A stretch of 64,000 bases of DNA from a virus: positions 1-64,000 of IMG/VR virus record IMGVR_UViG_3300020478_000003; one strand, written 5' to 3'. Below the pieces are notes generated by a model. It ran no database searches. It was not told the origin of the DNA and was given only the letters and a program-made list of their open reading frames with translations. Shown here one piece after another: positions 8,130 through 24,600 of this stretch. The position numbers and the translations under genes are program-made. The first letter of the stretch is position 1, and every line of letters begins with the position of its first letter.

Positions 8130-10559
8130 ATGGCAGTATCACCAAGTAGTGTAATATCAGCCTCACAAGGAACAGGAACGTTTACAAGCGTTAATGATGC
8201 AATGGGATCCGTTGGATCCACAATGCGATCCCCGGCTACGGGGAAATTAAATCAAATGAGAAGTGATGCTAAGCCTCTGGATGTTACAGGTCAAGTAGAT
8301 AAGACCGCTCTAGAGGCGGCATATGGAGCTGATGGAACTGAAATCTGGGACACTCTTCAAGGAGTACAAGAAGTTTCAGATGGCTTTACTCATTGTGGAG
8401 ATTTTTTAGAAGATGCCCTGCTAGCCGCTACACGAGACTTTATACGAAATTCTGGAATTCAGCAAGCTGGTAGAGAATTATCTAGAGCATTAGGTCAGTA
8501 TGATGATATGCTTGATTGTGCCGCTGGATTTGCTACATTACTTGAATCTGAAGGTGTTATTGATGATGCTATGGGAATGGGTGATCTCCCTCAGCTTTCT
8601 AATAGAACAAGAACACTAGTTGAAGATATAACCAATGCCTCAAGCGTATCTAATATGCTTGCTAATTGTGCTGTTATTAGAAATCTAACAAACGATTTCA
8701 ATAATATGTGCGGAGAGATGATGGAGAAGGTTAATGATCTTATCGGAAAAGATGTCGCCGCACTGGCAGCCGCCCTTACCAAATTAGCCCAATGGGCAGC
8801 CTTTGCAAAGATGGCAACTTCCGATCCTTGTGCATTAGTCAATAATAACAGAATGCTCCAGCACGTAACGCAACCCGTTATGGAAGACATTGTTAAGTTA
8901 TATAAAGGAGCTACAGGGCAACTCGATGAGCCAGAAGAACCTGAACTTCCTCTTGCTGATGAAGTTGGTAAACCTCCCGGAACAGTTATTGATGTACCCA
9001 AACATAAGCAAGCCGCGATGGAAGGGCAACCTTCATTCGCACAAGTAGCTGATGATTTGCCTGTTGGAACAGAAGTAGTTGAACAACAAAAAGCGGCTTC
9101 TCCAACTGGAGGATATGATTCTACACCACCTGAATATGTTCCTGGTGTAGGATGGACAACTCCAAATGATCCAGATTTTCCCGAAGATGTTGAAGCAAAG
9201 TCAGATTTTTCAAAAGGACTTGAGAAAGGTGAAACTCCATTTAATAATTCAACCGAATCGTTTAAGAAGAATAAAGATGAAGTTGAATATAAGGCAGTAG
9301 CCGAAGATAAAAAGAAAGTCGCAAAAGTCCATAAAGTAGGATGGTGTACAGGTGGCACAAATGGAGGTACTAATAGAAATGAAGATGCTTGTAAAGCTAC
9401 AGATGGTGAATGGCACGAAAAGGAAATGACTGATAATGAGGTCAAAATGGCTGGTTCAGTAGAAGCGGCTATGGGACCAATAGCTAAGACTTTAGCAGAT
9501 GTTTTTCCAGAATACGAGGCTGGTCCACCACCAAGCAGTCCTTCCTCTGCTTTGAAAGATGTACAAAGACCCAAAATTACTCCTAAGAGTCGGGACGTTC
9601 CCTCAGATCCTGGGAATCCAATGATCATAACTAAAGAACGAGATGCACTTGAGGGAGTGGGTTCATTTTACGGAACTTGGACTACACCGAGAAAAGTAAC
9701 TCCATTTACTCCAGCAGGAGTAGATCCGATATTATCAAAACAGGGGGCTCCTGTACCAAAGTCTAGTGCAGATCCTAATGATCCAAAACCATTTGCGGTT
9801 CCAACTTATGTACAAGCAGGTTTAGGGGTATTACCTGGAACATTTCGATTGAGTGAAGGTGCCGCCTTGCTTCCACCAGATAGAACAACACAGAAATCTA
9901 ATATTGGTGGAGATATCTCGGATTATGATCAATCTAGAGAAGTGGTCGAATTAGCAATGAAAACGGGAGATTGGTCGCAAGTAGAGACTTGTGGTTGTGA
10001 ACCAAGACAGGCTATACCTGATGCAAAAGAAGTGGGAGCTTGTGATTTTTCAGATTTAGAATATCCTAATGGATATCAATTGGTTCCACCTGAAAATTAT
10101 ACTGAATCATTAATTGCTAAAGTAGACGCGGCTGAAGCGGCAGGAACTGGTGCTTATATTGTGGTAGATGATAATATTTACGAATCAGTAGAAGCAGTAA
10201 TAATGGCTCAATACGGTGCTACTTTAGTTGAACCTTTTGAGCCAGGAAAAGAAGTATGTCTAAAACATTCAGGTAAATGGTATGTTATTTCGGCAGCCGT
10301 ACGAGCCGTCTCTGGAGCAAGTGCTTCTATACAAATTGATAATGCAAAATCTAAAGCAGTATGTGAAGAAGCAAATGGACAATGGGTATGCAAAAAAGGT
10401 CAAGCAGGAGTTACAAATGCGAAAAAAGCAATACAATCTTATGGAAAGTTTACAAACAAAAAGAATGTAAATACAAGATCAAAATTACCAACAGAGAAAC
10501 CTTTTGATACTGATAAATTACCTAGTTTAGAATTTAGTAGAATAGGTAGCAATGGATAG
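8130..10559 (+). CDS. Unknown 809-aa protein between gp5 and PAAR; helical N-half, C-x-G-x-W modules in C-half
   Basis: Long ORF with a GGA RBS in the late operon; no family recognised. Confidence 0.8.
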   Translation: MAVSPSSVISASQGTGTFTSVNDAMGSVGSTMRSPATGKLNQMRSDAKPLDVTGQVDKTALEAAYGADGTEIWDTLQGVQEVSDGFTHCGDFLEDALLAATRDFIRNSGIQQAGRELSRALGQYDDMLDCAAGFATLLESEGVIDDAMGMGDLPQLSNRTRTLVEDITNASSVSNMLANCAVIRNLTNDFNNMCGEMMEKVNDLIGKDVAALAAALTKLAQWAAFAKMATSDPCALVNNNRMLQHVTQPVMEDIVKLYKGATGQLDEPEEPELPLADEVGKPPGTVIDVPKHKQAAMEGQPSFAQVADDLPVGTEVVEQQKAASPTGGYDSTPPEYVPGVGWTTPNDPDFPEDVEAKSDFSKGLEKGETPFNNSTESFKKNKDEVEYKAVAEDKKKVAKVHKVGWCTGGTNGGTNRNEDACKATDGEWHEKEMTDNEVKMAGSVEAAMGPIAKTLADVFPEYEAGPPPSSPSSALKDVQRPKITPKSRDVPSDPGNPMIITKERDALEGVGSFYGTWTTPRKVTPFTPAGVDPILSKQGAPVPKSSADPNDPKPFAVPTYVQAGLGVLPGTFRLSEGAALLPPDRTTQKSNIGGDISDYDQSREVVELAMKTGDWSQVETCGCEPRQAIPDAKEVGACDFSDLEYPNGYQLVPPENYTESLIAKVDAAEAAGTGAYIVVDDNIYESVEAVIMAQYGATLVEPFEPGKEVCLKHSGKWYVISAAVRAVSGASASIQIDNAKSKAVCEEANGQWVCKKGQAGVTNAKKAIQSYGKFTNKKNVNTRSKLPTEKPFDTDKLPSLEFSRIGSNG

Positions 10560-10900: not shown

Positions 10901-11308
10901 ATGCCTGAACCGATACGAACAACTAGACTTAGAAAATATAGAGACATAGACCTAGATATGTTGGTTCATCCAATGACCAATGATGTTGTTGGTCGATCCG
11001 ATGTCGATGCTATTAATGGAAGTATCATTCGTATTATCAGAACACAACGCGGAGAACGTGTATTTCAAAGTGAATTTGGTTCAACGATATATCACTCACT
11101 TTTTGAGCCAATGTCCATCGAAACACGAGTTGTTTTAGAAGGAGCTATTGAGCAGGCAATTAGAAGATTTGAATCCAGATGTCGATTAGAAGGCGTATCA
11201 GTGGAAGCAGATCCAGACAGAAATGGGTATGAGGTAACCATCGTTTATACTCCCATAAATGAAGGTTCACCTGTAACACTCGATTTCTTCTTAAATAGAT
11301 TGAGGTAA
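10901..11308 (+). CDS. gp25: Baseplate wedge subunit gp25
   Basis: Y.DIDL...HP.T.D, AI..SI..I..T..GER.F..EFG, LFEP and I.RFE.R motifs. Confidence 0.93.
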   Translation: MPEPIRTTRLRKYRDIDLDMLVHPMTNDVVGRSDVDAINGSIIRIIRTQRGERVFQSEFGSTIYHSLFEPMSIETRVVLEGAIEQAIRRFESRCRLEGVSVEADPDRNGYEVTIVYTPINEGSPVTLDFFLNRLR

Positions 11309-11311
11309 CAA

Positions 11312-13081
11312 ATGGCGACAACTTTTAATCCAAAAGCATTAAATTTAAGTAATCTTGAGTTTGATGGAATAAAAAAGAACATTAAAGAGTTTATGAAAGG
11401 TCAAAACGAATTCATAGATTATGATTTCGAAGGATCTGGAATGAGTGTATTGCTCGATGTAATGGCATACACAACTCATTATATGGGATTTCACACTAAT
11501 ATGGCTATCAATGAATCTTTTCTTGATACTGCTACCCTCCGAAATTCCGTAGTATCTCACGCAAAATCAATTGGCTATGTTCCAAAATCTGCGACTTCCG
11601 CAGAAGCCATTGTTAAACTCACCTTTGATACTACTGGTACAGATCCTTCCTACATTGTTGTTGAAAAAGGAACGCAATTTGTTTCTAATATCAATGGAGT
11701 AGCATTACCTTTTACTAATCTTGAAACAGTAAATATATTTGCAGATGAAGGTGGAGAGTTCTCGGGAGAAATTAAACTCAATCAAGGCACATTAAAAGGT
11801 CTAGAATGGACAATGGATGCTACCTCAGAAACGCAAAAGTTTATAATTAGAGATCCATATTGCGATAGAGCAACCATAAGTATGATTGTTGCGGAATGGC
11901 CGTGGGAGAATAATCAAATTCTTTCTGAATTAGATAATAACTCTTCCGTTTTCTTCCTTCAAGAGGGACTAGATGGAGTCACAGAAATTTATTTCGGAAA
12001 TGGAATGTTTGGAAGACGACCTCTTGATGGACAACTAATTACAATTGCATATTTAAGTACGAATGGCGATGCCGGGAATTATACATCAACCGTTCAAGAA
12101 CAAACATTTGCTCTGGAATCAACAATTATGGAAGCCTATACGGCTTCAACGGTTACTGTAGAAACTGTAGATATTTCATCTTTAGGTGCTGAACAGGAAA
12201 GTACAGCAAACATCAAAGAAACTGCTCCAAGAGCATATGAACGACAAGATAGAGCGGTTACTGCCGAAGATTATAAAACGATTCTTGTAGAGAAATACCC
12301 AAATATTGACTCTATTGCAGTTTGGGGAGGAGAAGAAAACGATCCACCACAATATGGTGCTGTATTCATTTGTATCAAACCAAAGCACGGTTTAGAATTA
12401 TCTCCCTTGACGAAGAAAAGACTTACAGATGATATACTTTCCAAATACAATATGTTGGCTATTAATCCAATCATAACTGCACCAGAATACACGTATATTG
12501 ATGTAGAATCAACGGTTAAGTATGATCCAGTAAAGACTACATTATCCGCTGGTGAAGTTCAGACTAAAATTATATCAGAAATTGAAGATTTCTTTGAGAA
12601 GGAACTTGCACAATTTAAGGTAACTTTACGATATTCTAGACTTATTACTATTATTGATAGCACCGATAATTCTATCAGTAATAACTTAACCAACATCAAA
12701 ATGTATAAAAAGTTTTTCATTCAAGCATCCAATACAGTTGGTAACTATATTTTCAGATTTGACAATGCGATTACGGCAGGTACTGCTGTATCTTCTGTAT
12801 TCGGTAATTCAGAAGCCGGAACCCAATTTGCATTACTAGACGATGGGCAAGGAAACATTCTTTTATATGATATTGCGAATGAACAATTTTTAAATACTGA
12901 ACAAGGAACCATCGATTACGAAAATGGAATTATTGAGTTAATTGGATTTAACCCAGTTTTAGATACTAACACAGTAATAAGTTTGTATACTACACCTCAG
13001 TCAAATGACATTTCAGCAATCCGGAGTAATTTGCTAGTTCTACAAAACAGTAATATTTCAATGGTAAGTGTTAATGCTTGA
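11312..13081 (+). CDS. gp6: Baseplate wedge subunit gp6
   Basis: L.FD.IK...F.DYDFEGSG.SVLLD..AY.THY, ESFLD.A.LR.SVVSHAK, Q.RAVTAEDY and WGGE.N.PP.YG.VFI. Confidence 0.95.
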   Translation: MATTFNPKALNLSNLEFDGIKKNIKEFMKGQNEFIDYDFEGSGMSVLLDVMAYTTHYMGFHTNMAINESFLDTATLRNSVVSHAKSIGYVPKSATSAEAIVKLTFDTTGTDPSYIVVEKGTQFVSNINGVALPFTNLETVNIFADEGGEFSGEIKLNQGTLKGLEWTMDATSETQKFIIRDPYCDRATISMIVAEWPWENNQILSELDNNSSVFFLQEGLDGVTEIYFGNGMFGRRPLDGQLITIAYLSTNGDAGNYTSTVQEQTFALESTIMEAYTASTVTVETVDISSLGAEQESTANIKETAPRAYERQDRAVTAEDYKTILVEKYPNIDSIAVWGGEENDPPQYGAVFICIKPKHGLELSPLTKKRLTDDILSKYNMLAINPIITAPEYTYIDVESTVKYDPVKTTLSAGEVQTKIISEIEDFFEKELAQFKVTLRYSRLITIIDSTDNSISNNLTNIKMYKKFFIQASNTVGNYIFRFDNAITAGTAVSSVFGNSEAGTQFALLDDGQGNILLYDIANEQFLNTEQGTIDYENGIIELIGFNPVLDTNTVISLYTTPQSNDISAIRSNLLVLQNSNISMVSVNA

Positions 13082-13095
13082 TGGTGTAATTACAA

Positions 13096-16000
13096 ATGGC
13101 TCAAAAAGATAACTTTACTACACATCCTGCAAAGTTTCTCTCACTCTTTGTAGAAAGAATGGTACCCGATTATGTTCGGGAAGACCATCCGATGTTCATC
13201 ACTTTCTTACGCAAGTATTTTGAATACTTGGAAAGGGAAACTGATGCTAATGGTGAATTAGGTGAATATAGACAAATCACCGATCTAATTCAGAACTTAG
13301 ATGTAGACCACGCCTTAGATTCTTTTATTCCAGAGTTTGAGAAACAGTATCTTCACGGTACTCCTCATACTGCTGTTGATCCTACCATAGATACCACAGA
13401 TAAGGCTTTTCTTACTAAGAATATTCAGCCCATCTATCGCCAAAAGGGTACTACCAACGCCCTTAACTTTCTCTTCAGACGAGATTTTGACAGTTCTGTA
13501 GAAACCATATATCCTAAACAATGGATGTGGAGAGCATCTGGTTCAGTTTGGTATGAGCCAGAGTGGATTACAATATTGACTGACAAAGAGACTGAAGATT
13601 CCAATTCACCATATTATGGTGAAACTGAAAATGTGGTTGTTCCTGAAACAGTAAAATCACTTTATAATAAGAAGATTGTAGGACAAACTTCGGGTGCTAC
13701 CGCTTTCGTTGATATGCCTGAGGACGTAACTGTTTCGACTTATGAAAAGTTATTACTCACAGAAGTTAACGGAGTATTTCTCAAAGATGAAGAAGTCTGG
13801 GAAGATATAGGAACACAACTTAATGTAGTTCCCTTTAAAGCAAGAATTATTTCAGAAGGAATAAGAACAGAAGGTGAATGTATTATCAACGGTCACACTT
13901 GGCAAGATAAGTGGATGCACGTTACTGGTCATCCAAATGAAGTGCCTGTTCTGTTTGAGAAGCCGTTAATCACTGGTTTAACTAGTGGAGCTACTGCACA
14001 GATTAAAGGATTAGATGTAGATTACACCAAGATAAATTTACTGAATGTTAATCTCGACTTTCAGGAAGGAGAATACATTGTAAATACTCTTGCGTATCAA
14101 TATGACAGTTCATATCCAGGAGATGCACCTGTACAGTCTTTCTGTACAGTATCGCCCGACTGGCCGGCAGACCCAATAACGCAATATTCTCCATTCGATA
14201 ATATGATTGATTGTCAGGCGGCATTACATCCTGAAGGTAATGAGTCTGCATCTCCATATTTTGGTGAGCCAGCATTTTTAGAGTGGTATCCAGTTCTTGA
14301 ATTAACTACAGGAATTCAAACTGTAGAAAATACGATTCTTCAAAATATTACAGAACCTCCAGAAACAAGAGAAGCCTGCGATGCTCTTCTTGATTCTGTA
14401 GCCCAGCCTAATGTAAAAACTGCTGTTTGGAAAACAAATGGATACTGGTTAGATAGTGCAGGTTTCTTGTCTTCGGACAGAAAGATGCAAGATAATGATT
14501 ATTATCAAGACTTTTCATATGTTGTAAAATCTTCAGTTCCTGTCCAAGCATACAGAGAAGTATTAAAGAAACTTGTCCACCCAGTTGGACTAAAACTATT
14601 CGCTGAATTCTCATACGATTCTAACGTAGACTTGGTGGTGGAAATGCCCACCGATTATGTCAAGTGGTTCATTACGATATTTTCATATCTTGATGTTGCA
14701 ATGGACATCTGGGATGCAGAATCAGAACAACACGGAACCCTTGGACACGCTCATACTGGATTTGAATTATTCCTCGAGACAGGATTTGATGAGTATGTAG
14801 TAGAAGTATTGAAGTCGTTAGAAGTACGTTCTGGACTTGTTGGTTCTGAAGAGTGGGATAACCCATCGGATCACTTTTCTGTTAACTGGCAGATAGATGG
14901 TGGAAGAATTGGTTCACGAATTCAAGAAAAATTATATACAATTTCTTGGATTAATGATGAAGTTAAGATTGGTCTTGCGGCTATTCCACATACTACGGTA
15001 CTTGATTTCACTCAGCATCTACTTGTTCTCCCAATTAAAGAATTTCCACCAAGTGTTCAGGAAATGGAAATCTACGATGCCCGGGGCAATGAAGCTGATG
15101 GTCGAATGATTTCTTGTTCGGTTTGGGAACTTACAGTACAGAAAGCACTTCAGAGATTTATTTCTTGGCTCGAAGCATTTATTCCAGAAGCAGAATATGC
15201 TCCAGAAAAATCTTATGGACATTTTGAGACATATAGAGAAGACACCATTGTACACAAAGTATATGGTATGACCAATGATGTGATTGATTCTGTTCAAGTA
15301 GGAACATTTGAAAATGCGGCACATATCATACATAATCACGGACGTAAGAATGGTTTTGCTCCTGTAGTAGATACAAAACTTACTAAAGGTCAGACAGCAC
15401 CAGATTTAAGTGTAGGGGCTGCCGCCTTTCACGTACACGAATTTGAGGATCCAGTCTGTTCTGATACACAATATACAGATAAAGCCTCTTGTGAAACTGC
15501 GGGAGAAACTTGGGGTTATGTTGAAATTAAGAATTTAATTGTTCACGGGAAAACGGCAACTACTGCCCCAATGACGGTACAACAAGCAAGAGATTTAGTA
15601 AATCGAGATGCTTTTGAGATACCAAAATTCTTTGCTGATAAGCATACTACGGCTTTCTTTCCAGAAGCAACAAATCACGTTCACTTTTTTGAAGAAGGTG
15701 AAATAGTAGACAGACAAAGAGGACGGGTAGCAAATTGTTTACGAAGAGAAGAAGCAAGAGACTTAATTGATGGAAATATTGCTTCAGTTACTTTGTACGA
15801 TAATATTGGAAAACTGCAAGATTCTCAAGATCCTATAGAAGATGCTCAAGGAGTTCATCAAGGTGGTACAATAGAAAACGGAACTGGTGGGGTAATGACT
15901 GCCCACTATCACGAATATACGGTGACCTATGATTCTAATTGGGAAAACGGTACTGATTTTCAAGGTAATCCACTAACTCACGGATTTGTTTATACTCCAG

Positions 16001-19000
16001 TTGCTACTTGGGTATGTTTCAACTTTCATCCTGAATTAGGAGTTGGAGGTAATAATTTATGGGTAGATGAGTTGCAGACATATTGGGAACAGAACGTATT
16101 TGCCGTTGTTGATGATGCTACTATGCAGACCTTATTGGGCGAACCATCATTCACATTTCATCACCCTCAGGTTTGGAGTCCGACATTAAATCCAAATGTA
16201 GATTGGGTTGAATTATATTCAAGCAACTTTATTCAGAGTGTTCCTGGATCAGGAGACACAGGAGATTTGGTTGGTTCTGCTCTAATAACAGATCAAGTTA
16301 CAGATATTGCAACTATTGTAGCATATCCTATGGATCCAGATGTAGTTGCTATTGTAGATCAATCGGGAATTATCAATCTCTTAGATACCACTACTGGAGT
16401 TGTATCGTTATTCTTTGATTTAACAAATTTAAATCTTACTATTGGTCTTGGACCATTCGGAGCTTACGATGAACGAGGATGCTTAGGTCTTGCCTGGCAT
16501 CCCGATTATGCAAACAATGGTAAGTTTTATGTTTATTATATGACGGAACAAGGACCAGCTACAGGTGCATATGGATATCCACTTTCAACTACTATTATTT
16601 CTGAATTTACTGCTAATGTGGCTACAAATGCGGTAGATCCAGCAAGTGAAAGAATTCTTTTAACAATTCCACAGCCAGATATGAATCATAACGGTGGTCA
16701 ATTAGCATTTGGACCAGATGATATGTTGTATATCGGTCTTGGTGATGGTGGATCAGCGGGAGATACTTCAAGTTCAAGTGGTCACGGAGGACACGGTCTT
16801 TATGGTAATGCACAAAATCCATCTAATCTTCTGGGCACAATTCTTAGAATAGATCCAGCAGAAGACACAGTAGCCGGAACTCCGTATACAATTCCTGCAG
16901 ATAATCCATTCAAAGAGACACCTAGATTATACGGAGATACTGGGTTAGTATATTTCAAAGAAGAGATATGGGCTTACGGATTACGTAATCCTTGGCGTTT
17001 CTCTTTCGATACTCAAGGAAGATTGTGGTGTGCAGATGTTGGTCAAAATATGTGGGAAGAAATTAACATCATAGAAAAAGGTGGAAACTATGGTTGGAGA
17101 GTAATTGAAGGATATCACAATTACGAACAAGATCAGGCTATTATCGATCAAATTGCTCTTGATCTCCAATATGCAAACACAAATGAATTTTTAAATGATT
17201 TAAAACATCCGATTCACGAATATAGCCACGGTATTGGTATTAGTATTGTAAGTGGATTCGTATATCGAGGCACAGCATTAGATGGAATGCTAGGTAAATA
17301 TATATTTGGTGATTGGAGTAAGACTTGGTCTGGTACTTCTGGACACATATATTCACTAGAAGAAAATCCAGAAGGGCTTACCGCTTATTTCGACATAACT
17401 CCTAATGCGGTTAATGGTGCTAATCATAGTCATACTTGCGAATTGTCTCCAGCCCAAGTTGCTTCTTTACAAGCAAATCCCGGCTCTACTGTTTTTGTAG
17501 TTCAAAGCGATAATACCCACGCAGAACATTACACGCATACCTTTGAGATTATGTGGAATTCACAATTTAATCAGTGGAATCTAGTAAGTCAAACAAATTT
17601 AGAAAATCACGATGTATTTACATTCAGAGAATATTCAGATACTCCAGGTTGGACAAGAAAAGCACTTTCATTCTGGGATCCAGTTTCTGAAATAGTAACT
17701 CTCACAACTCACGACCGATCATTACTAACAATTGGTGAAGATACAAATGGTGAAATTTATCTCTCCACTCGTGTTGGTATTGATAGTTATCAAGGTACTG
17801 GACCTAACAATACTTCTATATACAAATTAACCGAAACATTCGATTCATCAACCGAAACTCCTGCACAAAGTCAGATACCAGCAGGTGAAATGGCTCACGT
17901 TCACGGATATAGAATAGAATATGATGCCGCCGCAGAAACATTTACGGCACAAGAAATTTCAGATATTGAAATGACTGTATGGGATGCGTTTTATCCAGTA
18001 TGGACTTACAATGATCCAGTATCTCATCTTCATCCCGTAACTGTTAGCTGGATACCTTCATTTGATGAAGAAATACAAATCGGATCTTCTGGTGGTTGGC
18101 ATTACAATACAAATAAAGTTCCACCAGTTTGGGAACCATATGATATTGGAGCTGATACTCCTTGGCAAGCACAAGTTGATGAAGAAGATGTTACTACCTA
18201 TATTGAAACTGCACCTATAGTAGAGATTTTAGGTGCTAACGAATATGGTCAAACTTCCCATATACACTACTTTGACGGTTCTGAACTAGATACATTTGGA
18301 CCAAATTCAGATAGACTTGCAATGCCCATTACAAGAATAGAAGCAGAACAATTAGCTAATGGAATTATAGCTGAAAAGATAGTTTTTTGTTCAATAGCAA
18401 ATTCTGGATTACACGAGCATTATCACAAATATAGCATTACTTACAATACTGCTACAAAACAATTTCAAGCCGATGAAATAGAAGAATTATGGGACACTCA
18501 GGGAACTGGTCAATGGACTCCAGTTGATGAAATTAATAAAACACACGAACATCCAATAGCCGTGAATGGAATTATGACACATTTGGGCTGGAATGGTCAA
18601 CCTCTTTATAATGCTCCTGATATTACATTATCCCACGCACACGATTGGGACGAACTTCAAGGTTCTGAAGCTGACCATTTACACTCATTTAATGGAACAT
18701 ATCTAGACACAATTGGAGCAAATGCAGGACGACAATCGTTGGCATTAGATGATAATCAAACAACGGATTTGATTAATGGAGATATTGATTCGGTTAAATT
18801 ATACACAAGTATTGCAACAGGAGATCATTATCACGCAGTTACCGTAACATATGACGAAAATAATTTGGCATTCATAGCAACGGATGTAGAAAAATGGTCA
18901 TCGGCTGATGGATTACAATTCTATTTGGAAGATCCTCGTACTCACGCTCACCCAACAAATGTACAAGGATTAGCAAGTCAGCCTGGATTCAATGAAATGA

Positions 19001-20442
19001 TGACAGATATGCCGGTGTTTAGTTCTCCTGGATATCCCTATCCTGGTGGTTCTCACCCGCACTTTCATAATAATTCAATAGTTGGTCCATTCGCTTGGAA
19101 TAATCAAATTGATTATGCACACGGATTGAATGTTACAGAAGCAATGCAATTAATAGATGGTATAGTTTCTTCAGTTAAAATTTACGATTCGATTGAAGGT
19201 GCTCACTTTCACGAATATACAATAATGTGGAATGATTCGACTGATAAATTTTATGTCGATAATTCTATTACTTGGATTAGGGGTGGAATTGAAGATGCTA
19301 GTCAGGATCCGACAAAATATTATGTGTCTGTAGTTGAAAATCCTTCTGAAGGACTTCATTGGCACAACTTAGTGATTGATTGGAATCCACTTGATACAGA
19401 TCCTCCACATATGGAAGGTGGAGCAATCTATATAACTAAAATTGAACCGGTTGATGAAGTTCTTACTTCTCAGCCCAATGTTGTTACCGAAGTTACTTCT
19501 ACGGCATTAAATCCTGTTACTACATCTTATCCAGATACGCCAAATCCTGGTGATACCACGATAATAATTCAGTATCAAGATTTAGTTACTACTACGGTCA
19601 CCACTACTACACAGATTACAACCACTACTACGACCACTACATATTATTCAGATTATAGTACAAATGTGGTTGTTGGATCGCCAGTAACGACTTATGATGT
19701 TCAAACAAGTGTTTCAACACAAACAGTAGAGGATATGGATGAAAGGAAGACATATATAAACACAGTTCTTCAAGCAAATAATCCACCAATTCTTTATATT
19801 CAACCTTCATTTATTGAAGGAGAAGGCTCTCACGATCACTTATTGTATGAGGACTGCGAACTTGATACCACTGGTCCATACGCAGGTAGAATGTGCGAAC
19901 CTATTACGCTTGCTCAGGCGAATGAATTAATTAATGAGCAAAATGCGAATTATGGAATAATATTTTATGATTCGCCTAATGGAGCAGATAACCATTATCA
20001 CGCATATACGATTAAATTTAATCCATTTGCGGGAACGGATGGCGAATTTGAAGTAGATGGAATTGGTCAATATGACCAAATTTACGGATCAGGAACTACT
20101 ATTCATACTTTTAAGTTGTCTGGTGGGTATCACGATCACGATTATTGGATGACTGTGGCAGATTATACTTCTCTTTTGACGGGTACTCATATAGTTACAC
20201 CACAAAGAGATTCCACTCACGCCAGTTCATATACTCACGAATTAACGCTTTCGTGGAATGGTAGTACGTATAATATAGAAAATCAGACAAGTGATTATGA
20301 TAATCACGATACAATTAGTTATACAGGTGCTGTAGCCCAAGGAGGACAATGGGTTCAGAATACAGATGGAGGTGGAGTTGGAGATCACGTTCACTCAGTA
20401 ACGATTGATGATTCATCCGTCTGGCCGGTAGATCCTGATTGA
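13096..20442 (+). CDS. gp7: Baseplate wedge initiator gp7, greatly extended with a GSDH-like beta-propeller, HxH modules and a Cys mini-domain
   Basis: N-terminal P.YVR.DHP.F..FL..YFEYLE and Y..KGT..A..FLFR, plus QDNDYYQDFSYV.KS...K.LVHPVG...F, are gp7 motifs of marine T4-likes. Lies between gp6 and gp8. Confidence 0.8.
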   Translation: MAQKDNFTTHPAKFLSLFVERMVPDYVREDHPMFITFLRKYFEYLERETDANGELGEYRQITDLIQNLDVDHALDSFIPEFEKQYLHGTPHTAVDPTIDTTDKAFLTKNIQPIYRQKGTTNALNFLFRRDFDSSVETIYPKQWMWRASGSVWYEPEWITILTDKETEDSNSPYYGETENVVVPETVKSLYNKKIVGQTSGATAFVDMPEDVTVSTYEKLLLTEVNGVFLKDEEVWEDIGTQLNVVPFKARIISEGIRTEGECIINGHTWQDKWMHVTGHPNEVPVLFEKPLITGLTSGATAQIKGLDVDYTKINLLNVNLDFQEGEYIVNTLAYQYDSSYPGDAPVQSFCTVSPDWPADPITQYSPFDNMIDCQAALHPEGNESASPYFGEPAFLEWYPVLELTTGIQTVENTILQNITEPPETREACDALLDSVAQPNVKTAVWKTNGYWLDSAGFLSSDRKMQDNDYYQDFSYVVKSSVPVQAYREVLKKLVHPVGLKLFAEFSYDSNVDLVVEMPTDYVKWFITIFSYLDVAMDIWDAESEQHGTLGHAHTGFELFLETGFDEYVVEVLKSLEVRSGLVGSEEWDNPSDHFSVNWQIDGGRIGSRIQEKLYTISWINDEVKIGLAAIPHTTVLDFTQHLLVLPIKEFPPSVQEMEIYDARGNEADGRMISCSVWELTVQKALQRFISWLEAFIPEAEYAPEKSYGHFETYREDTIVHKVYGMTNDVIDSVQVGTFENAAHIIHNHGRKNGFAPVVDTKLTKGQTAPDLSVGAAAFHVHEFEDPVCSDTQYTDKASCETAGETWGYVEIKNLIVHGKTATTAPMTVQQARDLVNRDAFEIPKFFADKHTTAFFPEATNHVHFFEEGEIVDRQRGRVANCLRREEARDLIDGNIASVTLYDNIGKLQDSQDPIEDAQGVHQGGTIENGTGGVMTAHYHEYTVTYDSNWENGTDFQGNPLTHGFVYTPVATWVCFNFHPELGVGGNNLWVDELQTYWEQNVFAVVDDATMQTLLGEPSFTFHHPQVWSPTLNPNVDWVELYSSNFIQSVPGSGDTGDLVGSALITDQVTDIATIVAYPMDPDVVAIVDQSGIINLLDTTTGVVSLFFDLTNLNLTIGLGPFGAYDERGCLGLAWHPDYANNGKFYVYYMTEQGPATGAYGYPLSTTIISEFTANVATNAVDPASERILLTIPQPDMNHNGGQLAFGPDDMLYIGLGDGGSAGDTSSSSGHGGHGLYGNAQNPSNLLGTILRIDPAEDTVAGTPYTIPADNPFKETPRLYGDTGLVYFKEEIWAYGLRNPWRFSFDTQGRLWCADVGQNMWEEINIIEKGGNYGWRVIEGYHNYEQDQAIIDQIALDLQYANTNEFLNDLKHPIHEYSHGIGISIVSGFVYRGTALDGMLGKYIFGDWSKTWSGTSGHIYSLEENPEGLTAYFDITPNAVNGANHSHTCELSPAQVASLQANPGSTVFVVQSDNTHAEHYTHTFEIMWNSQFNQWNLVSQTNLENHDVFTFREYSDTPGWTRKALSFWDPVSEIVTLTTHDRSLLTIGEDTNGEIYLSTRVGIDSYQGTGPNNTSIYKLTETFDSSTETPAQSQIPAGEMAHVHGYRIEYDAAAETFTAQEISDIEMTVWDAFYPVWTYNDPVSHLHPVTVSWIPSFDEEIQIGSSGGWHYNTNKVPPVWEPYDIGADTPWQAQVDEEDVTTYIETAPIVEILGANEYGQTSHIHYFDGSELDTFGPNSDRLAMPITRIEAEQLANGIIAEKIVFCSIANSGLHEHYHKYSITYNTATKQFQADEIEELWDTQGTGQWTPVDEINKTHEHPIAVNGIMTHLGWNGQPLYNAPDITLSHAHDWDELQGSEADHLHSFNGTYLDTIGANAGRQSLALDDNQTTDLINGDIDSVKLYTSIATGDHYHAVTVTYDENNLAFIATDVEKWSSADGLQFYLEDPRTHAHPTNVQGLASQPGFNEMMTDMPVFSSPGYPYPGGSHPHFHNNSIVGPFAWNNQIDYAHGLNVTEAMQLIDGIVSSVKIYDSIEGAHFHEYTIMWNDSTDKFYVDNSITWIRGGIEDASQDPTKYYVSVVENPSEGLHWHNLVIDWNPLDTDPPHMEGGAIYITKIEPVDEVLTSQPNVVTEVTSTALNPVTTSYPDTPNPGDTTIIIQYQDLVTTTVTTTTQITTTTTTTTYYSDYSTNVVVGSPVTTYDVQTSVSTQTVEDMDERKTYINTVLQANNPPILYIQPSFIEGEGSHDHLLYEDCELDTTGPYAGRMCEPITLAQANELINEQNANYGIIFYDSPNGADNHYHAYTIKFNPFAGTDGEFEVDGIGQYDQIYGSGTTIHTFKLSGGYHDHDYWMTVADYTSLLTGTHIVTPQRDSTHASSYTHELTLSWNGSTYNIENQTSDYDNHDTISYTGAVAQGGQWVQNTDGGGVGDHVHSVTIDDSSVWPVDPD

Positions 20443-20540: not shown

Positions 20541-21551
20541 ATGGGTGCAATTGTAACCAGTAAATTCAGAACACAGAACTTGATGGTTTTCATCGACCAG
20601 TTCAAAACTACTGGTTCTGTTGATGACAACTTCCTGTATCTCGGGTTCGGACGATCTGACGTGTGGCCGGATGATGCTCAAGGAAATGACGAGAGTTCAG
20701 GTAATTTTACATTACCTGATCCATTAGATGAGGATGAATCTCAGTATTGGGCTGACATTGTTGGCGCAAAACGAATTCAGGATGATGATATTTCTCCAGT
20801 ACTTCCCCGTATTGACTGGGATACAGGAGATACTATCGCATTTGATGGTGATGCCGCGGCAGGTATCACTGGAATCGCTGAGCCTGGTCGTTCATTCGTA
20901 TCAAAAGTAGGATATCATTCTGTAGTAATGAATTCCGAATATCGAGTTTATATGTGTGCAGGAGAACCATCTCTAGGAAAATGCTACGTTGGTGGTGTTT
21001 GGGATGGTGGAACCGCAGCCTCAAGAGCAGTTTGTGAAGCAACTTCTGGTGGACTTTGGCTACCTCAGGGTGCTACTGAAGAACCTTCAGGATTCACAGG
21101 AGATGCCGCAGGATTGACCGCACAGAACATATTGACTTCTGACAACTACGTTTGGACATTCCTGTATAAACTGGAATTGAACGATATCATTAACTCAACT
21201 ACAAACGACTGGATGCCAGTAATATCAGGTAGTGGAGTTTTAGCAGGATCAGAACAATCTGATTTCGGAGATGTAGATGCTATATTTACAGCAAAAACTC
21301 ACCACGGCCTTATTCACGTTAGATTAGAAACTGCTGACGGATTTCCCGAAAATGATGACTTTAGACAAATTGGTCTATTGCGTAATCCCGAACTAGCTGG
21401 AGGCGGAACGAAAGCCCAGGCGGCTGTATATGCTGATGCTGATGTCAGTTTGGAAACAGATAGTGGACAGTTAATCTATCTAGAAAACAGGCGTGCGATT
21501 ACTCGTGCTTCTGACCAGATTGAAGATTTAAAACTCGTAGTAGAATTCTAA
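20541..21551 (+). CDS. gp8: Baseplate wedge subunit gp8
   Basis: AIVT.KFR, YL.FGR...W, PR.DW..G, V.NSEYRVY.C, D.YVW.FLY, DFRQIGL..NP and YLENR..I.RASDQ.EDLKLV.EF. Confidence 0.92.
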   Translation: MGAIVTSKFRTQNLMVFIDQFKTTGSVDDNFLYLGFGRSDVWPDDAQGNDESSGNFTLPDPLDEDESQYWADIVGAKRIQDDDISPVLPRIDWDTGDTIAFDGDAAAGITGIAEPGRSFVSKVGYHSVVMNSEYRVYMCAGEPSLGKCYVGGVWDGGTAASRAVCEATSGGLWLPQGATEEPSGFTGDAAGLTAQNILTSDNYVWTFLYKLELNDIINSTTNDWMPVISGSGVLAGSEQSDFGDVDAIFTAKTHHGLIHVRLETADGFPENDDFRQIGLLRNPELAGGGTKAQAAVYADADVSLETDSGQLIYLENRRAITRASDQIEDLKLVVEF

Positions 21552-21629: not shown

Positions 21630-24600
21630 ATGGCATATAATTTCAATACATCTCCATATTATGATGATTTTAATCCAGATGATAGATTTTTAAAAATCTT
21701 ATTCAATCCTGGACGTGCAGTTCAAGCAAGAGAATTAACACAAATACAATCCATTCTTCAGCACCAAATGTCGGCTGCGGCTAATCACATTTGGAAGAAT
21801 GGAGCTCCCGTTGTAGGTGGAGGAATTAGTATAGCTAAACGACCTTATATGGCTCTTGCTACCGCAGATGGAACTTGGTTAAACCGTATTGTATATGGAG
21901 AAAACTCTTTAGCGGTTGCTGTCATTGATCAATTACACGATGATGAAACCCAGCCTGTCTATTATTACAGAGCCCTTTCCGGAGAATTTGAAGCTAACGA
22001 AAATCTATTCACATACGATACAGTTTGTGATGGTGGTTTCGATGTTAATGGAAATTGTATTGATAACTCTTGGTACGACCCTACAATGTTGTACAAAGCT
22101 GGAGTTATTACTTCTGTAGGAAAAGCACTAGAAGGAAAAGTTGAAGCTGGAGTTTATTGGCTTGATGGTTTCTTCACCCCGGTGCTTCCTCAAACTATTT
22201 TTCTAGATGATCTATCCCCTACTCCTACTTGTAAGTTAGGATTCGATATTGAAGAAGTTATCGTAGAGTCAACTACGGATCCACGACTTCTTGATCCAGC
22301 TTCCGGATTTTACAATCAGAATGCTCCTGGCGGAGACAGATATCAAAAAACTATGACCCTTTGTAAGGAAACAGACTCAGGAGAGTCTAACAAATGGATG
22401 TGGATGATGGATGTCAATGCTGGAAAAATAATCCAGAAATATCAATCTACTGATTATTCATTGCTATCTACGGAGATGGCAAAACGTACATTTGACGAAT
22501 CGGGCAACTATACTATAAATCCATTTCCAATCGAAAAGAAACCGGGATTGACTGCGGATCAATATGGAATAAAAGTTGAACCCAGTAAAGCATACATAAA
22601 TGGATTTGAACACGAATTAATTTCTCCTATAACGATTTACGCTGACCGAGCCCGAACAACTCGCCATATAGCGAATGACCGCATTACTCCTGAATTTGGT
22701 CCATATTTTGAAGTAGAAACAGTAGACGACCTGCACGGTGTTTTTAATGTTGTAAATAAAGAATATGTTATATTTGTTACTGATGTTAACCACGATATTA
22801 CTAATACAACTCCTTCCACTATAGGTGTACATAAACGTATTACTCACGTTACGAATGCACTCTTATCTGGTACTAATATAATGGGATATAGAATATATCT
22901 CGAAGATAACATCGGATTAGATGCTGTAGCACCTGCACGATGGATTGTTTCGGAAACTAATGTTGGAGTATACGCAAAACTTTATCGACCTCTAGGACAC
23001 GCAGTATCAAAAGGAGTACATTATCCTTGGTTGTTTAGAACGCACGATATAACTTCAGCATTGACTCTAGGACAGATAACATACACGACCCAAAAGAATT
23101 CTACAGCAACATTAACTGGTGGTGTTGCTTCAGTTCCTGCAGTATTTAACGATATGCACTGGCAAAACATCTTATATATTTGGGATGATACTGCGGATGC
23201 ACTTATACCACAAAACGGAACTGTCGCCTCTGGTGATACTTGGGTTGCCGACTTATCAGGAAACACAACCGCACTTATTACAATTATAGATCAAGTATCT
23301 GGTAACGTATCTACAAACTTGTCAGGACGAACTATTTCGATTATGGCAAATATGTATATGAGTAATGCTTCTTGGAGAGCAGTATCTTTTGATACAACTA
23401 CTGCGGACTTTACTCTTGCGAATGAAAAATTGCCTATTCCTATAGCAGTAACAGAAGTAACTCAAATTATTGCTCCTGATACCACAGATGTAACTTCTTC
23501 ATTTACTTTTACCAAGGGAGATACTGATACGACTTATCATATGGCGAATCTTGAGTGGACTGACGAGGTTAATGCAAGTCAACCAGGTACTTATTCAGTA
23601 ACATACTCTGCATTTACTCACGGAAATATTACAACCGCAACATATTTTGCGGTAAACTCATATACTGATGCTGGTATTCTTTATGATGATGTTCCAGGAT
23701 ATGTTACATCCATAAACGAAAATCGTTCACTTCAAGATGAGATAGACTTTAGAGCATCGGAAGCTGATTACGCAGTAGGTACATATTTACCTCTACCTGA
23801 ATCAAATCTTTCAGTTTCTTATGATTATTATCTTGGACGAAGAGATAGAATAACAATTAACGATGACGGAAAAATTCAAATTAAACAAGGCTTCCCTTCA
23901 GAAGATCCAATGCTTCCAACAGAAGAATTGAATGAAATGACCTTGTATAATTTGTTTATACCTCCATATACCTTTAATCATAAAAATATTAATGTATCTC
24001 ACGTGGAACAAAAGCGTTTCACAATGCAAGATATTAGAGGTATAGAAGGACGACTTGAAAATTTAGAATATTATACTTCATTAAGTCTTCTAGAAAAATC
24101 TACTGCCGATATGCAGGTTGAAGATGAAAACGGATTACAAAGATATAAAAATGGTATTTTAGTAGACTCATTCACCGATCACGGTATTGGGGATGTAAAT
24201 GACGAAGCATATTACTGTACAATTTATCCTGAAGCGAGAATTTGTACTGTACCTTATGAAATGTATGGTCTAGATTGTGAACCTGGAGTAACTTCAGGTG
24301 TTGTACATAATAATTTAACATACACTTTAAACTATAATGTTGAAGAGGCGTGGATAAAACAAGATCACGGAACACAAGTTCTAAACTTGAATCCATTTGC
24401 AAGAAAATCTTGGGTCGGTTTTGCTACATTAACTCCTTCTACTGATACGTGGTTTGAAGAAACATATATGCCTGATGTTATTATTCAAAACAAAAATAAT
24501 AATGCTGTGGTAGAGGCAGTAGAACAATACGGAACACAAACAAGATGGAATGCTTGGGAGACAACTTGGTCTGGATTTAAAGATAAGGGTGGTAGAGATA

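What the first reader, a model, noticed from the sequence alone, without database searches (positions are those of the whole stretch)
16280..17830. Glucose/sorbosone dehydrogenase (GSDH/HHIP-like) six-bladed propeller embedded in baseplate wedge gp7
Seen: DERGCLGLAWHPDY..NGKFYVYY, ERILL..PQP..NHNGGQLAFGPD.MLYIGLGDGG, NLLGTILRID, Y.IP.DNPF, EIWAYGLRNPWRFSFD, DVGQ..WEEIN....GGNYGW and a final blade GED.NGEIY. This is a near-complete cellular-type GSDH domain inside a core baseplate protein. The His (HNGG) and Arg-Asn (LRNP) equivalent to the soluble PQQ-GDH active site are present. The C-terminal RxR PQQ-binding motif is not evident, which suggests the HHIP-like subgroup. Inference: it is either an enzyme or a repurposed sugar/receptor-binding propeller.
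Basis: partly seen in the sequence, partly recalled or inferred. Interest (0 to 1): 0.8.

Follow-up and report, generated by a model that had tools for sequence, protein, structure and literature searches.

The report
Sugar-dehydrogenase-like propeller inside a phage baseplate protein
An uncultured marine T4-like phage carries a complete cellular-type glucose/sorbosone-dehydrogenase (HHIP-like) beta-propeller, with a histidine-rich module nested inside it, as a conserved part of its giant gp7 baseplate protein, probably to recognise or modify host surface sugars.

Summary
Residues ~1052-1582 of a 2448-aa ORF (window 13096-20442) form a complete six-bladed GSDH propeller. Pfam PF07995 gives E 2.2e-32. 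The AF2 model has pLDDT 86 and matches HHIP at Z 39.3 and PQQ sugar dehydrogenases at Z 37-39.

The ORF is gp7-like: PF23786, phrog_17744, and gp6-like and gp8-like neighbours. The fusion is not a chimera. It recurs in 32 metagenomic protein clusters and 33 IMG/VR loci, and independent assemblies bridge both junctions.

The catalytic-type His (H1198) and Arg-Asn (R1297-N1298) are kept in 33 of 33 clade members, and dN/dS is about 0.12-0.16. The Lys and Arg-x-Arg that hold PQQ in sGDH are not kept. The nearest cellular relatives lack them too.

It is a paralogue of other modules in gp7 and has no Pfam or PDB match.

My best reading is a virion-displayed module that recognises host surface carbohydrate. 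Catalysis is unresolved. No cultured phage in the collection searched has this domain, and seven literature searches found no description. I rate it a new variant of a known kind, of moderate interest.

The parts
13096..20442 (+). gp7-like baseplate wedge protein, 2448 aa (P0001), which carries the GSDH propeller
   Evidence: ORF. Pfam PF23786 and PF07995. phrog_17744 'baseplate wedge subunit' at E 9.2e-43. tblastn of the N-terminal 560 aa hits 'baseplate wedge initiator' genes of cyanophages.
13132..14661 (+). Region of gp7 homology (residues ~13-522)
   Evidence: phrog_17744 matches residues 13-237, PF23786 matches 453-506, and phrog_4406/2885/701 match 428-522. Residues 451-500 are the most conserved stretch across 21 relatives, at 0.89 identity.
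16249..17409 (+). GSDH/HHIP-like propeller, blades 1-5 (residues 1052-1438)
   Evidence: PF07995, AF2 model, VIA-align Z 37-39 to HHIP and PQQ sugar dehydrogenases. dN/dS 0.12-0.16 against four relatives.
16687..16689 (+). His1198, the equivalent of the sGDH catalytic base His144
   Evidence: MAFFT and hhalign against an Acinetobacter GdhB ortholog numbered against PDB 1c9u. His is present in 33 of 33 clade sequences and 84 of 85 cellular relatives.
16984..16989 (+). Arg1297-Asn1298, the equivalents of sGDH Arg228-Asn229
   Evidence: Both residues are present in 33 of 33 clade sequences. HHIP has His-Asp at this position (alignment).
17410..17628 (+). His-rich module nested in the propeller (residues 1439-1511; pattern HxH ... 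H ... H)
   Evidence: It matches a second copy at residues ~2343-2409 (phmmer E about 1e-5 in relatives; profile E 1.6e-10). Cellular homologues have only a short loop at this site. It has no Pfam hit.
17629..17841 (+). Return segment and last blade of the propeller (residues 1512-1582, includes TIGEDTNGEIY)
   Evidence: The model aligns to HHIP and 3a9g up to model residues 542-544. hhalign places sGDH R406-Y-R408 on R1541-S-L1543.
15670..15936 (+). His-rich module, long type (residues 859-947)
   Evidence: Profile search with the clade's module alignment, E 2.4e-5 and 3e-3.
18247..20322 (+). Five more His-rich modules (residues 1718-1800, 1858-1935, 1986-2057, 2243-2310 and 2343-2409)
   Evidence: E 1e-43 to 1.6e-10. 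The His residues are invariant in 26 sequences. The model of residues 2235-2448 has pLDDT 72.9 and no PDB fold match.
11312..13081 (+). gp6-like baseplate wedge subunit, directly upstream
   Evidence: phrog_219, E 5.9e-164.
20541..21551 (+). gp8-like baseplate wedge subunit, directly downstream
   Evidence: phrog_438 at E 6.8e-37 and phrog_977 at E 1.7e-35.
10901..11308 (+). gp25-like baseplate wedge subunit
   Evidence: phrog_261, E 9.4e-37.

Best explanation
A cellular extracellular-type GSDH/HHIP-like six-bladed propeller was captured by a lineage of uncultured marine T4-like myoviruses. It became a fixed internal domain of the gp7 baseplate wedge protein. By analogy with T4, that would put six copies on each baseplate (inferred). 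The domain keeps the ligand pocket of its cellular subfamily and carries a phage-specific His-rich module that is probably metal-binding. By my reading of the model's strand order, this module sits in the loop just before the last blade, on the same face as the pocket (inferred). I think the propeller most likely works as a host-envelope carbohydrate recognition module during adsorption. It would bind a sugar in the conserved pocket, with or without oxidising it. Shown: the fold, the fusion, its conservation, the retained residues and purifying selection. Inferred: exposure on the baseplate periphery, a carbohydrate ligand and a role in adsorption.
For: - Fold and family.
- The fusion is real and old. 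Of 32 related protein clusters (53-99% identity), 27 carry both PF23786 and PF07995; the other 5 are shorter proteins. 33 IMG/VR loci hold the full domain at 54-82% identity. One 14,442-nt contig from another study spans 15800-18300 without gaps, and contigs from two more runs bridge both junctions.
- Constraint: GSDH dN/dS is 0.12-0.16, as low as the gp7 core. Identity to 21 relatives is 0.64-0.81. Strain variants show 15 synonymous against 9 non-synonymous codons, and 11 against 6 (the source table was truncated).
- Pocket kept: 53 of the 66 columns that are at least 90% conserved in 85 cellular relatives keep the same residue in at least 31 of 33 phage sequences. These include every conserved polar residue (E1126, N1197, H1198, D1217, R1251, R1297, N1298, Q1317, E1321/1322, W1334, Y1376, D1406).
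- Extracellular, carbohydrate-related setting of cellular relatives: the Pfam lists show fusions to Ig-like, PKD, SprB, T9SS, lectin and glycoside hydrolase domains (domain names are recalled from the accessions).
- The same domain recurs in other phage tail and baseplate settings: at the C-terminus of another gp7 (L039), and as a standalone 674-aa protein inside a tail-fibre gene cluster next to an Mtd_N protein (L040-L043).
- The closest solved relative, HHIP, is a non-enzymatic binder, and two of its entries are complexes with heparin or a glycosaminoglycan mimic (7pgm, 7pgn; titles).
Against: - No ligand, host or virion location has been observed.
- Receptor-binding tips are usually hypervariable, but this domain is among the most conserved parts of the protein. 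That fits an enzyme or a structural role equally well.
- Full retention of the His and Arg-Asn catalytic-type residues is more than a simple lectin would need.
- No solved T4 gp7 matched by sequence, so where the extension sits in the baseplate is inferred only by analogy.
Confidence: 0.5

Rival explanations
1. The domain is an active virion-borne PQQ/Ca-dependent sugar dehydrogenase. It would oxidise a host surface sugar, for example C1 of an aldose residue, as part of receptor processing.
For: - The catalytic-base His and the Arg-Asn pair that flank the PQQ ketones (roles as described in the passage of PMC6881810 read) are kept in 33 of 33 sequences.
- The whole conserved pocket of the subfamily is kept, and dN/dS is as low as in the gp7 core.
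- At least 17 of the 86 listed cellular relatives are fused to cupredoxin, cytochrome c or multicopper-oxidase domains (Pfam lists; domain names are recalled; JGI names two of them 'plastocyanin/glucose/arabinose dehydrogenase'). This suggests the subfamily is redox-active.
- Missing the classical PQQ-binding residues does not exclude PQQ use. CcSDH lacks them and is still PQQ-dependent (passage of PMC4133262 read).
Against: - The sGDH Lys377, Arg406 and Arg408 equivalents are S1408, a non-conserved R1541, and L1543.
- NCBIfam TIGR03606 scores 78.5 bits against a cut-off of 434.55.
- By sequence the domain is closer to the non-enzyme HHIP.
- A virion has no obvious electron acceptor or PQQ supply.
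- No pqqC was found in the 124-kb record, but that search's control did not ring either, so it is uninformative.
- I recall no precedent for a virion oxidoreductase.
Confidence: 0.22
2. The propeller is mainly a rigid scaffold or spacer that displays inserted modules. The pocket itself would have no ligand, and host contact would be made by the nested His-rich module or by lineage-specific inserts.
For: - All 33 clade members carry the nested module.
- Relatives carry further inserts at three other sites: Cys-rich repeats, a dockerin/EF-hand-like motif, and a helical segment.
- Variation is concentrated in the inserts, not in the propeller itself.
Against: A pure scaffold would not be expected to keep every polar pocket residue of the cellular subfamily after a stem branch of 0.77 substitutions per site. 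The group-2 phage GSDH domains have no nested module and still keep the His and Arg-Asn residues.
Confidence: 0.18
3. The domain is an HHIP-style protein binder. It would dock a zinc-peptidase-like (Hedgehog/LAS-fold) or other protein partner, from the phage or the host, in the way HHIP sequesters Hedgehog.
For: HHIP is the best PDB match by both sequence and structure.
Against: - No Peptidase_M15_4, M15_3 or M23 gene is present in the 124-kb record, which is 69% complete.
- The domain keeps Arg-Asn where HHIP has His-Asp.
- The HHIP Hedgehog-binding loop was not examined.
Confidence: 0.05
4. The fusion is an assembly chimera or a misjoin of a bacterial GSDH gene into a phage contig.
For: None found.
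Against: - The same architecture appears in 27 clusters from ENA, JGI and Logan sources and in 33 IMG/VR loci.
- 20 runs from 6 studies hold at least 79% of the sampled 31-mers of window 15800-18300.
- Contigs from runs in three studies cross the junctions.
- The frame is continuous and GC content is even across the region.
Confidence: 0.01

Closest known systems
Hedgehog-interacting protein (HHIP) beta-propeller domain (PDB 7pgm, 2wfx, 3ho5)
   Same: It is the best solved match: phmmer E 5.6e-22, clade profile E 6.9e-31, VIA-align Z 39.3 with rmsd 2.7 over 354 residues at 29% identity. It shares the last-blade motif 'FGED..GE.Y' in place of Arg-x-Arg. It is an extracellular binder and not an enzyme.
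   Different: HHIP has His-Asp where the phage keeps Arg-Asn. HHIP's flanking EGF and Frizzled-like domains are absent (Pfam). The phage domain has a nested His-rich module and sits inside a virion protein.
Soluble PQQ-dependent glucose/aldose dehydrogenases (A. calcoaceticus sGDH 1c9u, E. coli Asd 2g8s, P. aerophilum 3a9g, S. coelicolor 3das)
   Same: Same six-bladed fold (Z 33-39) and same Pfam family. The catalytic His and the Arg-Asn pair are conserved, as is the EEIN/GGNYGW loop motif.
   Different: The equivalents of Lys377, Arg406 and Arg408 are missing. Gln231 becomes Trp, Gln246 becomes Val and Pro248 becomes Gln. The score is far below the TIGR03606 cut-off. Identity is 18-24%.
Multidomain bacterial and archaeal extracellular 'PQQ-dependent sugar dehydrogenase' / TIGR03806-type proteins (nearest cellular relatives; Bacteroidota, Planctomycetota, Verrucomicrobiota and others)
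   Same: They are 38-46% identical and have the same conserved pocket and last-blade motif. Like the phage domain, they are modules within giant surface or secreted proteins.
   Different: They have no nested module and are not in a virion protein. None is a clear donor: the phage clade sits on a 0.77 stem branch inside an unresolved polytomy.
T4 gp7 baseplate wedge protein and cyanophage 'baseplate wedge initiator' proteins
   Same: There is N-terminal homology (PF23786, phrog_17744, tblastn to cyanophage gp7) and the gp25-gp6-gp7-gp8 gene order is shared.
   Different: N-terminal gp7 homology is found in 359 phage records, but the GSDH domain is found in no phage record except four Acinetobacter 'phage MD-2021a' contigs, where the match lies on genes annotated yliI, aldose sugar dehydrogenase. 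The protein is 2448 aa against 1032 aa for T4 gp7 (T4 length recalled).
Phage tail proteins that contain beta-propellers: K1F endosialidase (a six-bladed propeller with a nested domain) and phiKZ gp131 (recalled, not tested here)
   Same: In these too a propeller is used as a peripheral tail or baseplate module. Endosialidase also has a domain nested inside its propeller (recalled).
   Different: They belong to different propeller families (sialidase, seven-bladed). They are hydrolases or of unknown function, not GSDH-type.

Membership tests
Pfam GSDH (PF07995) | HMM score above the gathering threshold | tested here: met
   113.1 bits against a cut-off of 25, E 2.2e-32. 117.6 bits in the six-frame search of the window's own record.
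Pfam GSDH (PF07995) | Six-bladed beta-propeller fold | tested here: met
   The AF2 model (pLDDT 86.1) aligns over the full length of 3a9g (334 of 338 residues, Z 38.9) and of HHIP (Z 39.3).
PQQ-dependent soluble sugar dehydrogenase (sGDH/Asd; NCBIfam TIGR03606) | Catalytic base His (sGDH His144) | tested here: met
   H1198, present in 33 of 33 clade sequences.
PQQ-dependent soluble sugar dehydrogenase (sGDH/Asd; NCBIfam TIGR03606) | Arg-Asn pair next to the PQQ ketones (Arg228-Asn229) | tested here: met
   R1297-N1298, present in 33 of 33 sequences. Their role is as described in the PMC6881810 passage.
PQQ-dependent soluble sugar dehydrogenase (sGDH/Asd; NCBIfam TIGR03606) | PQQ carboxylate-binding Lys377, Arg406 and Arg408 (roles recalled from Oubrie et al. 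1999, which is not held in the library) | tested here: not met
   hhalign gives K377 to S1408, R406 to R1541 (which is R, M, E or A across the clade) and R408 to L1543. The alignment in this C-terminal part is of low confidence.
PQQ-dependent soluble sugar dehydrogenase (sGDH/Asd; NCBIfam TIGR03606) | NCBIfam curated cut-off | tested here: not met
   78.5 bits against a cut-off of 434.55.
PQQ-dependent soluble sugar dehydrogenase (sGDH/Asd; NCBIfam TIGR03606) | PQQ and Ca2+ binding, and dehydrogenase activity | not testable with these tools
   This needs recombinant protein. PQQ is not among the ligands the complex predictor offers.
HHIP (vertebrate Hedgehog-interacting protein) | Propeller flanked by Frizzled-like and EGF domains | tested here: not met
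   Pfam finds only GSDH and Baseplate_wedge in the 2448-aa protein.
HHIP (vertebrate Hedgehog-interacting protein) | Hedgehog-binding loop with the zinc-coordinating Asp (recalled) | not tested
   No residue-level structural superposition was available.
T4-type gp7 baseplate wedge protein | Family HMMs above threshold | tested here: met
   PF23786 at 33.4 bits against a cut-off of 27, and phrog_17744 at E 9.2e-43.
T4-type gp7 baseplate wedge protein | Position between gp6 and gp8 in a T4-like baseplate gene module | tested here: met
   phrog_219 upstream and phrog_438/977 downstream. gp25-, gp5-, gp53- and gp48-like genes lie further upstream.
T4-type gp7 baseplate wedge protein | Structural match to solved T4 gp7 | tested here: inconclusive
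   No PDB sequence hit with the N-terminal 585 aa or with the whole-protein profile. No model of the N-terminal part was made.

The most novel reading that the evidence does not exclude
The baseplate of these marine phages carries six copies of a working cofactor-dependent sugar oxidoreductase, with the nested 4-His module helping to hold a cofactor or metal. The virion would chemically oxidise a host surface glycan as a step in receptor recognition or penetration. That would be a receptor-modifying chemistry not known from any phage virion; the known ones are hydrolases, lyases and esterases (recalled).
Probability: 0.15. Interest if true: 0.8.

Novelty: new variant of a known kind. Interest (0 to 1): 0.5.

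Why it matters
Phage baseplate and fibre proteins are known to recruit cellular carbohydrate-binding or carbohydrate-degrading domains. A GSDH/HHIP-like propeller has not been reported in that role: seven full-text searches found no such report (I saw listings, plus passages of three papers). No cultured phage among 50,697 records has the domain.

The domain is fixed under purifying selection in a widespread marine phage lineage. Twenty marine or seawater runs from six studies hold near-identical DNA.

If the domain is catalytic, it would add redox chemistry to the ways phages are known to process their receptors. If it only binds, it is a bacterial-world counterpart of HHIP's use of this fold as a non-enzymatic binder. 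It also gives a tractable ~550-aa domain for identifying the receptor, and from that the unknown host, of an uncultured phage group.

Tried and rejected
- **Cultured-phage matches.** megablast of the gene against the phage collection found nothing. tblastn with the domain hit only four Acinetobacter 'phage MD-2021a' contigs, on genes annotated yliI, aldose sugar dehydrogenase. I treat these as cellular-type genes, not as phage parallels.
- **gp7 in the PDB.** The N-terminal 585 aa and the whole-protein profile found no solved gp7.
- **Donor lineage.** The best cellular hits (45-46% identity; Dyadobacter, a Cytophagia MAG, Pedobacter, a Thermoplasmatales MAG) are spread over many phyla. In the 102-row tree the phage clade sits in an unresolved polytomy.
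- **One capture or two.** The AU test for a single origin of the two phage GSDH groups did not finish on 102 rows. On 42 rows the two groups fall together with support of only 41.6, so a single origin is neither shown nor rejected.
- **Identity of the His-rich module.**
  - No Pfam hit at E up to 5.
  - No Foldseek hit (best E 0.13).
  - Best VIA-wide Z is 3.9.
  - No usable ESM Atlas hit.
  - Only 7 proteins at E up to 0.001 among 1.84 billion representatives; 4 of them are the same clade.
  - One of the seven, P0140, is a SprB/T9SS adhesin. It turned out to be a repeat-driven match: it has no HxH motif and does not match the module profiles. I rejected it.
- **Cofactor and partner genes in the 124-kb record.**
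  - No pqqC, but the control did not ring either, so this is uninformative.
  - No psbA.
  - No M15 or M23 peptidases.
  - The record is only 69% complete, so none of these absences is proof.
- **tRNAs.** None in the window.
- **Papers not held.** The sGDH and HHIP structure papers were unavailable. The roles of Lys377, Arg406 and Arg408 are therefore recalled.
Full report
**What is there**

The finding lies in one ORF, window 13096-20442 (+), of 2448 aa. Pfam GSDH (PF07995) matches residues 1126-1404 at 113.1 bits (cut-off 25), E 2.2e-32.

A PDB sequence search returns only this family, 13 of 13 hits. HHIP scores E 5.6e-22 and A. calcoaceticus sGDH about E 4-6e-18.

An AF2 model of residues 1041-1589, built on a 51-sequence alignment, has pLDDT 86.1 and pTM 0.89. 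VIA-align gives:
- HHIP: Z 39.3 (rmsd 2.7, 354 aa, 29% identity)
- 3a9g: Z 38.9
- 7cgz: Z 37.6
- 3das: Z 37.5
- 2ism: Z 37.4
- 2g8s: Z 37.2
- sGDH: Z 33.7
- fungal AA12 enzymes: Z about 27

Unrelated six-bladed propellers score Z 22 or less (Foldseek agrees). So the domain is a complete six-bladed GSDH propeller spanning residues ~1052-1582 (nt 16249-17841).

**The host protein is gp7-like**

- PF23786 (Baseplate_wedge) scores 33.4 bits against a cut-off of 27.
- phrog_17744 ('baseplate wedge subunit') scores E 9.2e-43 over the N-terminus.
- tblastn of the first 560 aa hits 359 phage records, including cyanophage genes annotated 'baseplate wedge initiator'.
- The neighbours are gp6-like (phrog_219, E 6e-164) and gp8-like (phrog_438/977). 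gp25-, gp5-, gp53- and gp48-like genes lie upstream.

The window is part of a 124-kb IMG/VR record that CheckV estimates as 69% complete. Its terminase and portal are about 55% and 49% identical to those of cyanophages and of Methylophilales phage Melnitz. No psbA was found in the record. The host is unknown.

**The fusion is not an artefact**

The region search listed 120 proteins. Among them, 32 clusters are 53-99% identical over the domain. Twenty-seven of the 32 carry both PF23786 and PF07995; the other five are shorter proteins.

An IMG/VR scan returned 48 loci. Thirty-three of them hold the whole domain, including its insert, at 54-82% identity, inside ORFs of about 2400-3100 aa wherever the contig is long enough.

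Twenty of 24 listed runs, from six studies and all labelled marine or seawater, hold at least 79% of the sampled 31-mers of window 15800-18300. One of these runs may be the source sample.

Contigs from runs in other studies cover the junctions:
- Run X4: one 14,442-nt contig spans the whole stretch with 28 differences and no gaps.
- Run X12: contigs of 17,289 and 10,165 nt cover 15800-16872 and 16928-18300.
- Run X7: an 806-nt contig covers 16067-16872, and a 25,028-nt contig covers 16928-18300.

**Constraint**

Across 21 full-length relatives, the GSDH region is 0.64-0.81 identical to the window. That is similar to the gp7 core and higher than residues 301-450 and 751-850.

Nei-Gojobori dN/dS against four relatives is 0.12-0.16 for the propeller. 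The gp7 core gives 0.13-0.16 and residues 561-1051 give 0.23-0.29. dS is above 1, so these ratios are rough.

Among the strain differences listed by read laying, X4 has 15 synonymous and 9 non-synonymous codons. The X12/X7 haplotype has 11 and 6. The table was truncated, with 13 rows not shown.

**Active-site comparison**

I numbered sGDH through an Acinetobacter GdhB ortholog that aligns end to end with PDB 1c9u. MAFFT and hhalign then give the following equivalences:

| sGDH residue | Phage gp7 residue | Conservation |
|---|---|---|
| His144 | H1198 | 33 of 33 clade sequences |
| Arg228-Asn229 | R1297-N1298 | 33 of 33 clade sequences |
| Gln76 | E1126 | |
| Asp143 | N1197 | |
| Gln231 | W1300 | |
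| Gln246 | V1315 | |
| Pro248 | Q1317 | |
| Lys377 | S1408 | |
| Arg406 | R1541 | R, M, E or A across the clade |
| Arg408 | L1543 | |

The alignment of the last three rows is of low confidence.

The roles of His144, Arg228 and Asn229 are as described in a passage of PMC6881810. The roles of Lys377, Arg406 and Arg408 are recalled, because the original papers were not held.

The nearest cellular relatives also lack Arg-x-Arg. They share HHIP's 'FGED..GE.Y' last-blade motif. This includes relatives fused to cupredoxin, cytochrome c or multicopper-oxidase domains, which are at least 17 of the 86 listed (domain names recalled from accessions).

HHIP itself has His-Asp where the phage has Arg-Asn.

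Of the 66 columns that are at least 90% conserved in 85 cellular relatives, 53 keep the same residue in at least 31 of 33 phage sequences. Every conserved polar residue is among them.

A passage of PMC4133262 says the catalytic His is conserved in all six-bladed quinoproteins. It also says CcSDH lacks the bacterial PQQ-binding residues yet is PQQ-dependent. The missing Arg-x-Arg therefore does not settle whether this domain is an enzyme.

**The nested module**

The Pfam match ends at residue 1404 because residues 1439-1511 are foreign to the propeller. They match a second copy near the C-terminus, at residues 2343-2409 (E about 1e-5 by phmmer in most relatives; E 1.6e-10 by profile).

They are also related to a longer module found at residues 859-947, 1718-1800, 1858-1935, 1986-2057 and 2243-2310.

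The histidines follow the pattern HxH ... H ... H and are invariant in 26 sequences. This suggests a metal site, which is an inference.

The module has no identified relative outside this clade:
- No Pfam hit.
- No PDB fold match: Foldseek best E 0.13, VIA-wide best Z 3.9.
- Only 7 proteins at E up to 0.001 among 1.84 billion representatives, and four of them are the same clade.
- One of the seven, P0140, proved to be a repeat-driven false lead.

From the model's strand order, the insert lies in the loop between the fifth blade's last strand and the sixth blade's first strand. That is the face that carries the pocket in sGDH. This rests on my reading of the DSSP string and on recalled propeller conventions.

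Relatives carry additional inserts at three other sites in the propeller: Cys-rich repeats, a dockerin/EF-hand-like motif and a helical segment.

**Origin and spread**

The best cellular matches among 185,579 species genomes are 45-46% identical and spread across many phyla.

In a 102-row quick ML tree the gp7-internal clade is monophyletic (SH-aLRT 100) on a stem branch of 0.77.

A second phage group (37-42% identity) is also monophyletic (100). It groups with a Thermoplasmatales MAG sequence at support 93. Both phage groups lie in an unresolved polytomy.

A 42-row tree joins the two phage groups with support of only 41.6. The AU test on the full set did not finish. One capture or two cannot be decided.

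The second group is informative in another way:
- In L039 the propeller is at the C-terminus of a 2852-aa gp7.
- In L040-L043 it is in a standalone 674-aa protein. That protein lies between a tail-fibre protein and a protein with an Mtd_N domain and a gp9-like connector region.

So this propeller has been used repeatedly as a tail or baseplate module in marine phages.

**Interpretation**

I commit to a virion-displayed module that recognises host surface carbohydrate and uses the retained pocket (confidence 0.5).

The rivals are:
- a true PQQ/Ca-dependent enzyme (0.22);
- mainly a scaffold for inserted modules (0.18);
- an HHIP-style protein binder (0.05); no LAS-type peptidase gene was found in the record;
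- an assembly chimera (0.01).

Seven full-text searches found no paper that links this family to a phage baseplate. For these I saw listings and the passages cited above. A mangrove virome paper only lists AA12 'sorbosone dehydrogenase' among putative auxiliary genes (passage).

Noticed in passing
window 15670-15936, 17410-17628 and 18247-20322 (gp7 residues 859-947, 1439-1511, 1718-2409): At least seven copies of a ~70-85-aa His-rich module with invariant HxH ... H(Y)H motifs. It has no Pfam family, no PDB fold match, and essentially no relatives outside this phage clade among 1.84 billion representatives. A metal-binding role is inferred.
   Followed up: partly
window about 15430-15520 (gp7 residues ~780-810); also inserts in P0004, P0010-P0012 and P0022: Short Cys-rich repeats of the type 'C-S-D-x-x-[YFW] ... 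C ... G-x-x-W'. They occur in the window's gp7 and as lineage-specific inserts inside the propeller of relatives.
   Followed up: no
P0030 residues 286-368 and P0031 residues 1302-1394 (relatives, blade 1 of the propeller): An ~85-aa insert with a dockerin/EF-hand-like calcium-loop motif (DFNKDGVINQLDLD). P0032 has a different ~120-aa helical insert elsewhere in the propeller.
   Followed up: no
L040 9095-11119 (also L041-L043, and similar in L037, L038, L044); L039 2594-11152: A second marine phage group carries a related GSDH propeller. In some it is a standalone 674-aa protein inside a tail-fibre gene cluster, next to an Mtd_N-domain protein. In L039 it is at the C-terminus of a 2852-aa gp7.
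   Followed up: partly
window 21630-27068, 27527-35935 and 36023-39616: Three more giant ORFs (1812, 2802 and 1197 aa) lie downstream of gp8. They match only PHROGs of unknown function or generic 'virion structural protein' families.
   Followed up: no
window 8130-10559: An 809-aa ORF between the gp5-like hub and the gp25-like gene has no PHROG match at E up to 0.001.
   Followed up: no
window 7213-8115: The gp5-like hub protein is only 300 aa. It matches the N-terminal part (profile positions 10-146) and a later part (524-642) of 'hub subunit and tail lysozyme' profiles, so it may lack the lysozyme domain. I did not test this directly.
   Followed up: no
L045 and L048 (IMG/VR giant-virus MAG contigs); L046 and L049 (contigs of 582 and 391 kb): More distant GSDH homologues (29-32% identity) occur as 345-600-aa ORFs on giant-virus-type contigs.
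   Followed up: no
P0034 (1397 aa, from a 5-kb contig): A protein with two tandem GSDH domains (residues 360-699 and 795-1150), each about 38% identical to the window's domain. Its origin is unknown.
   Followed up: no
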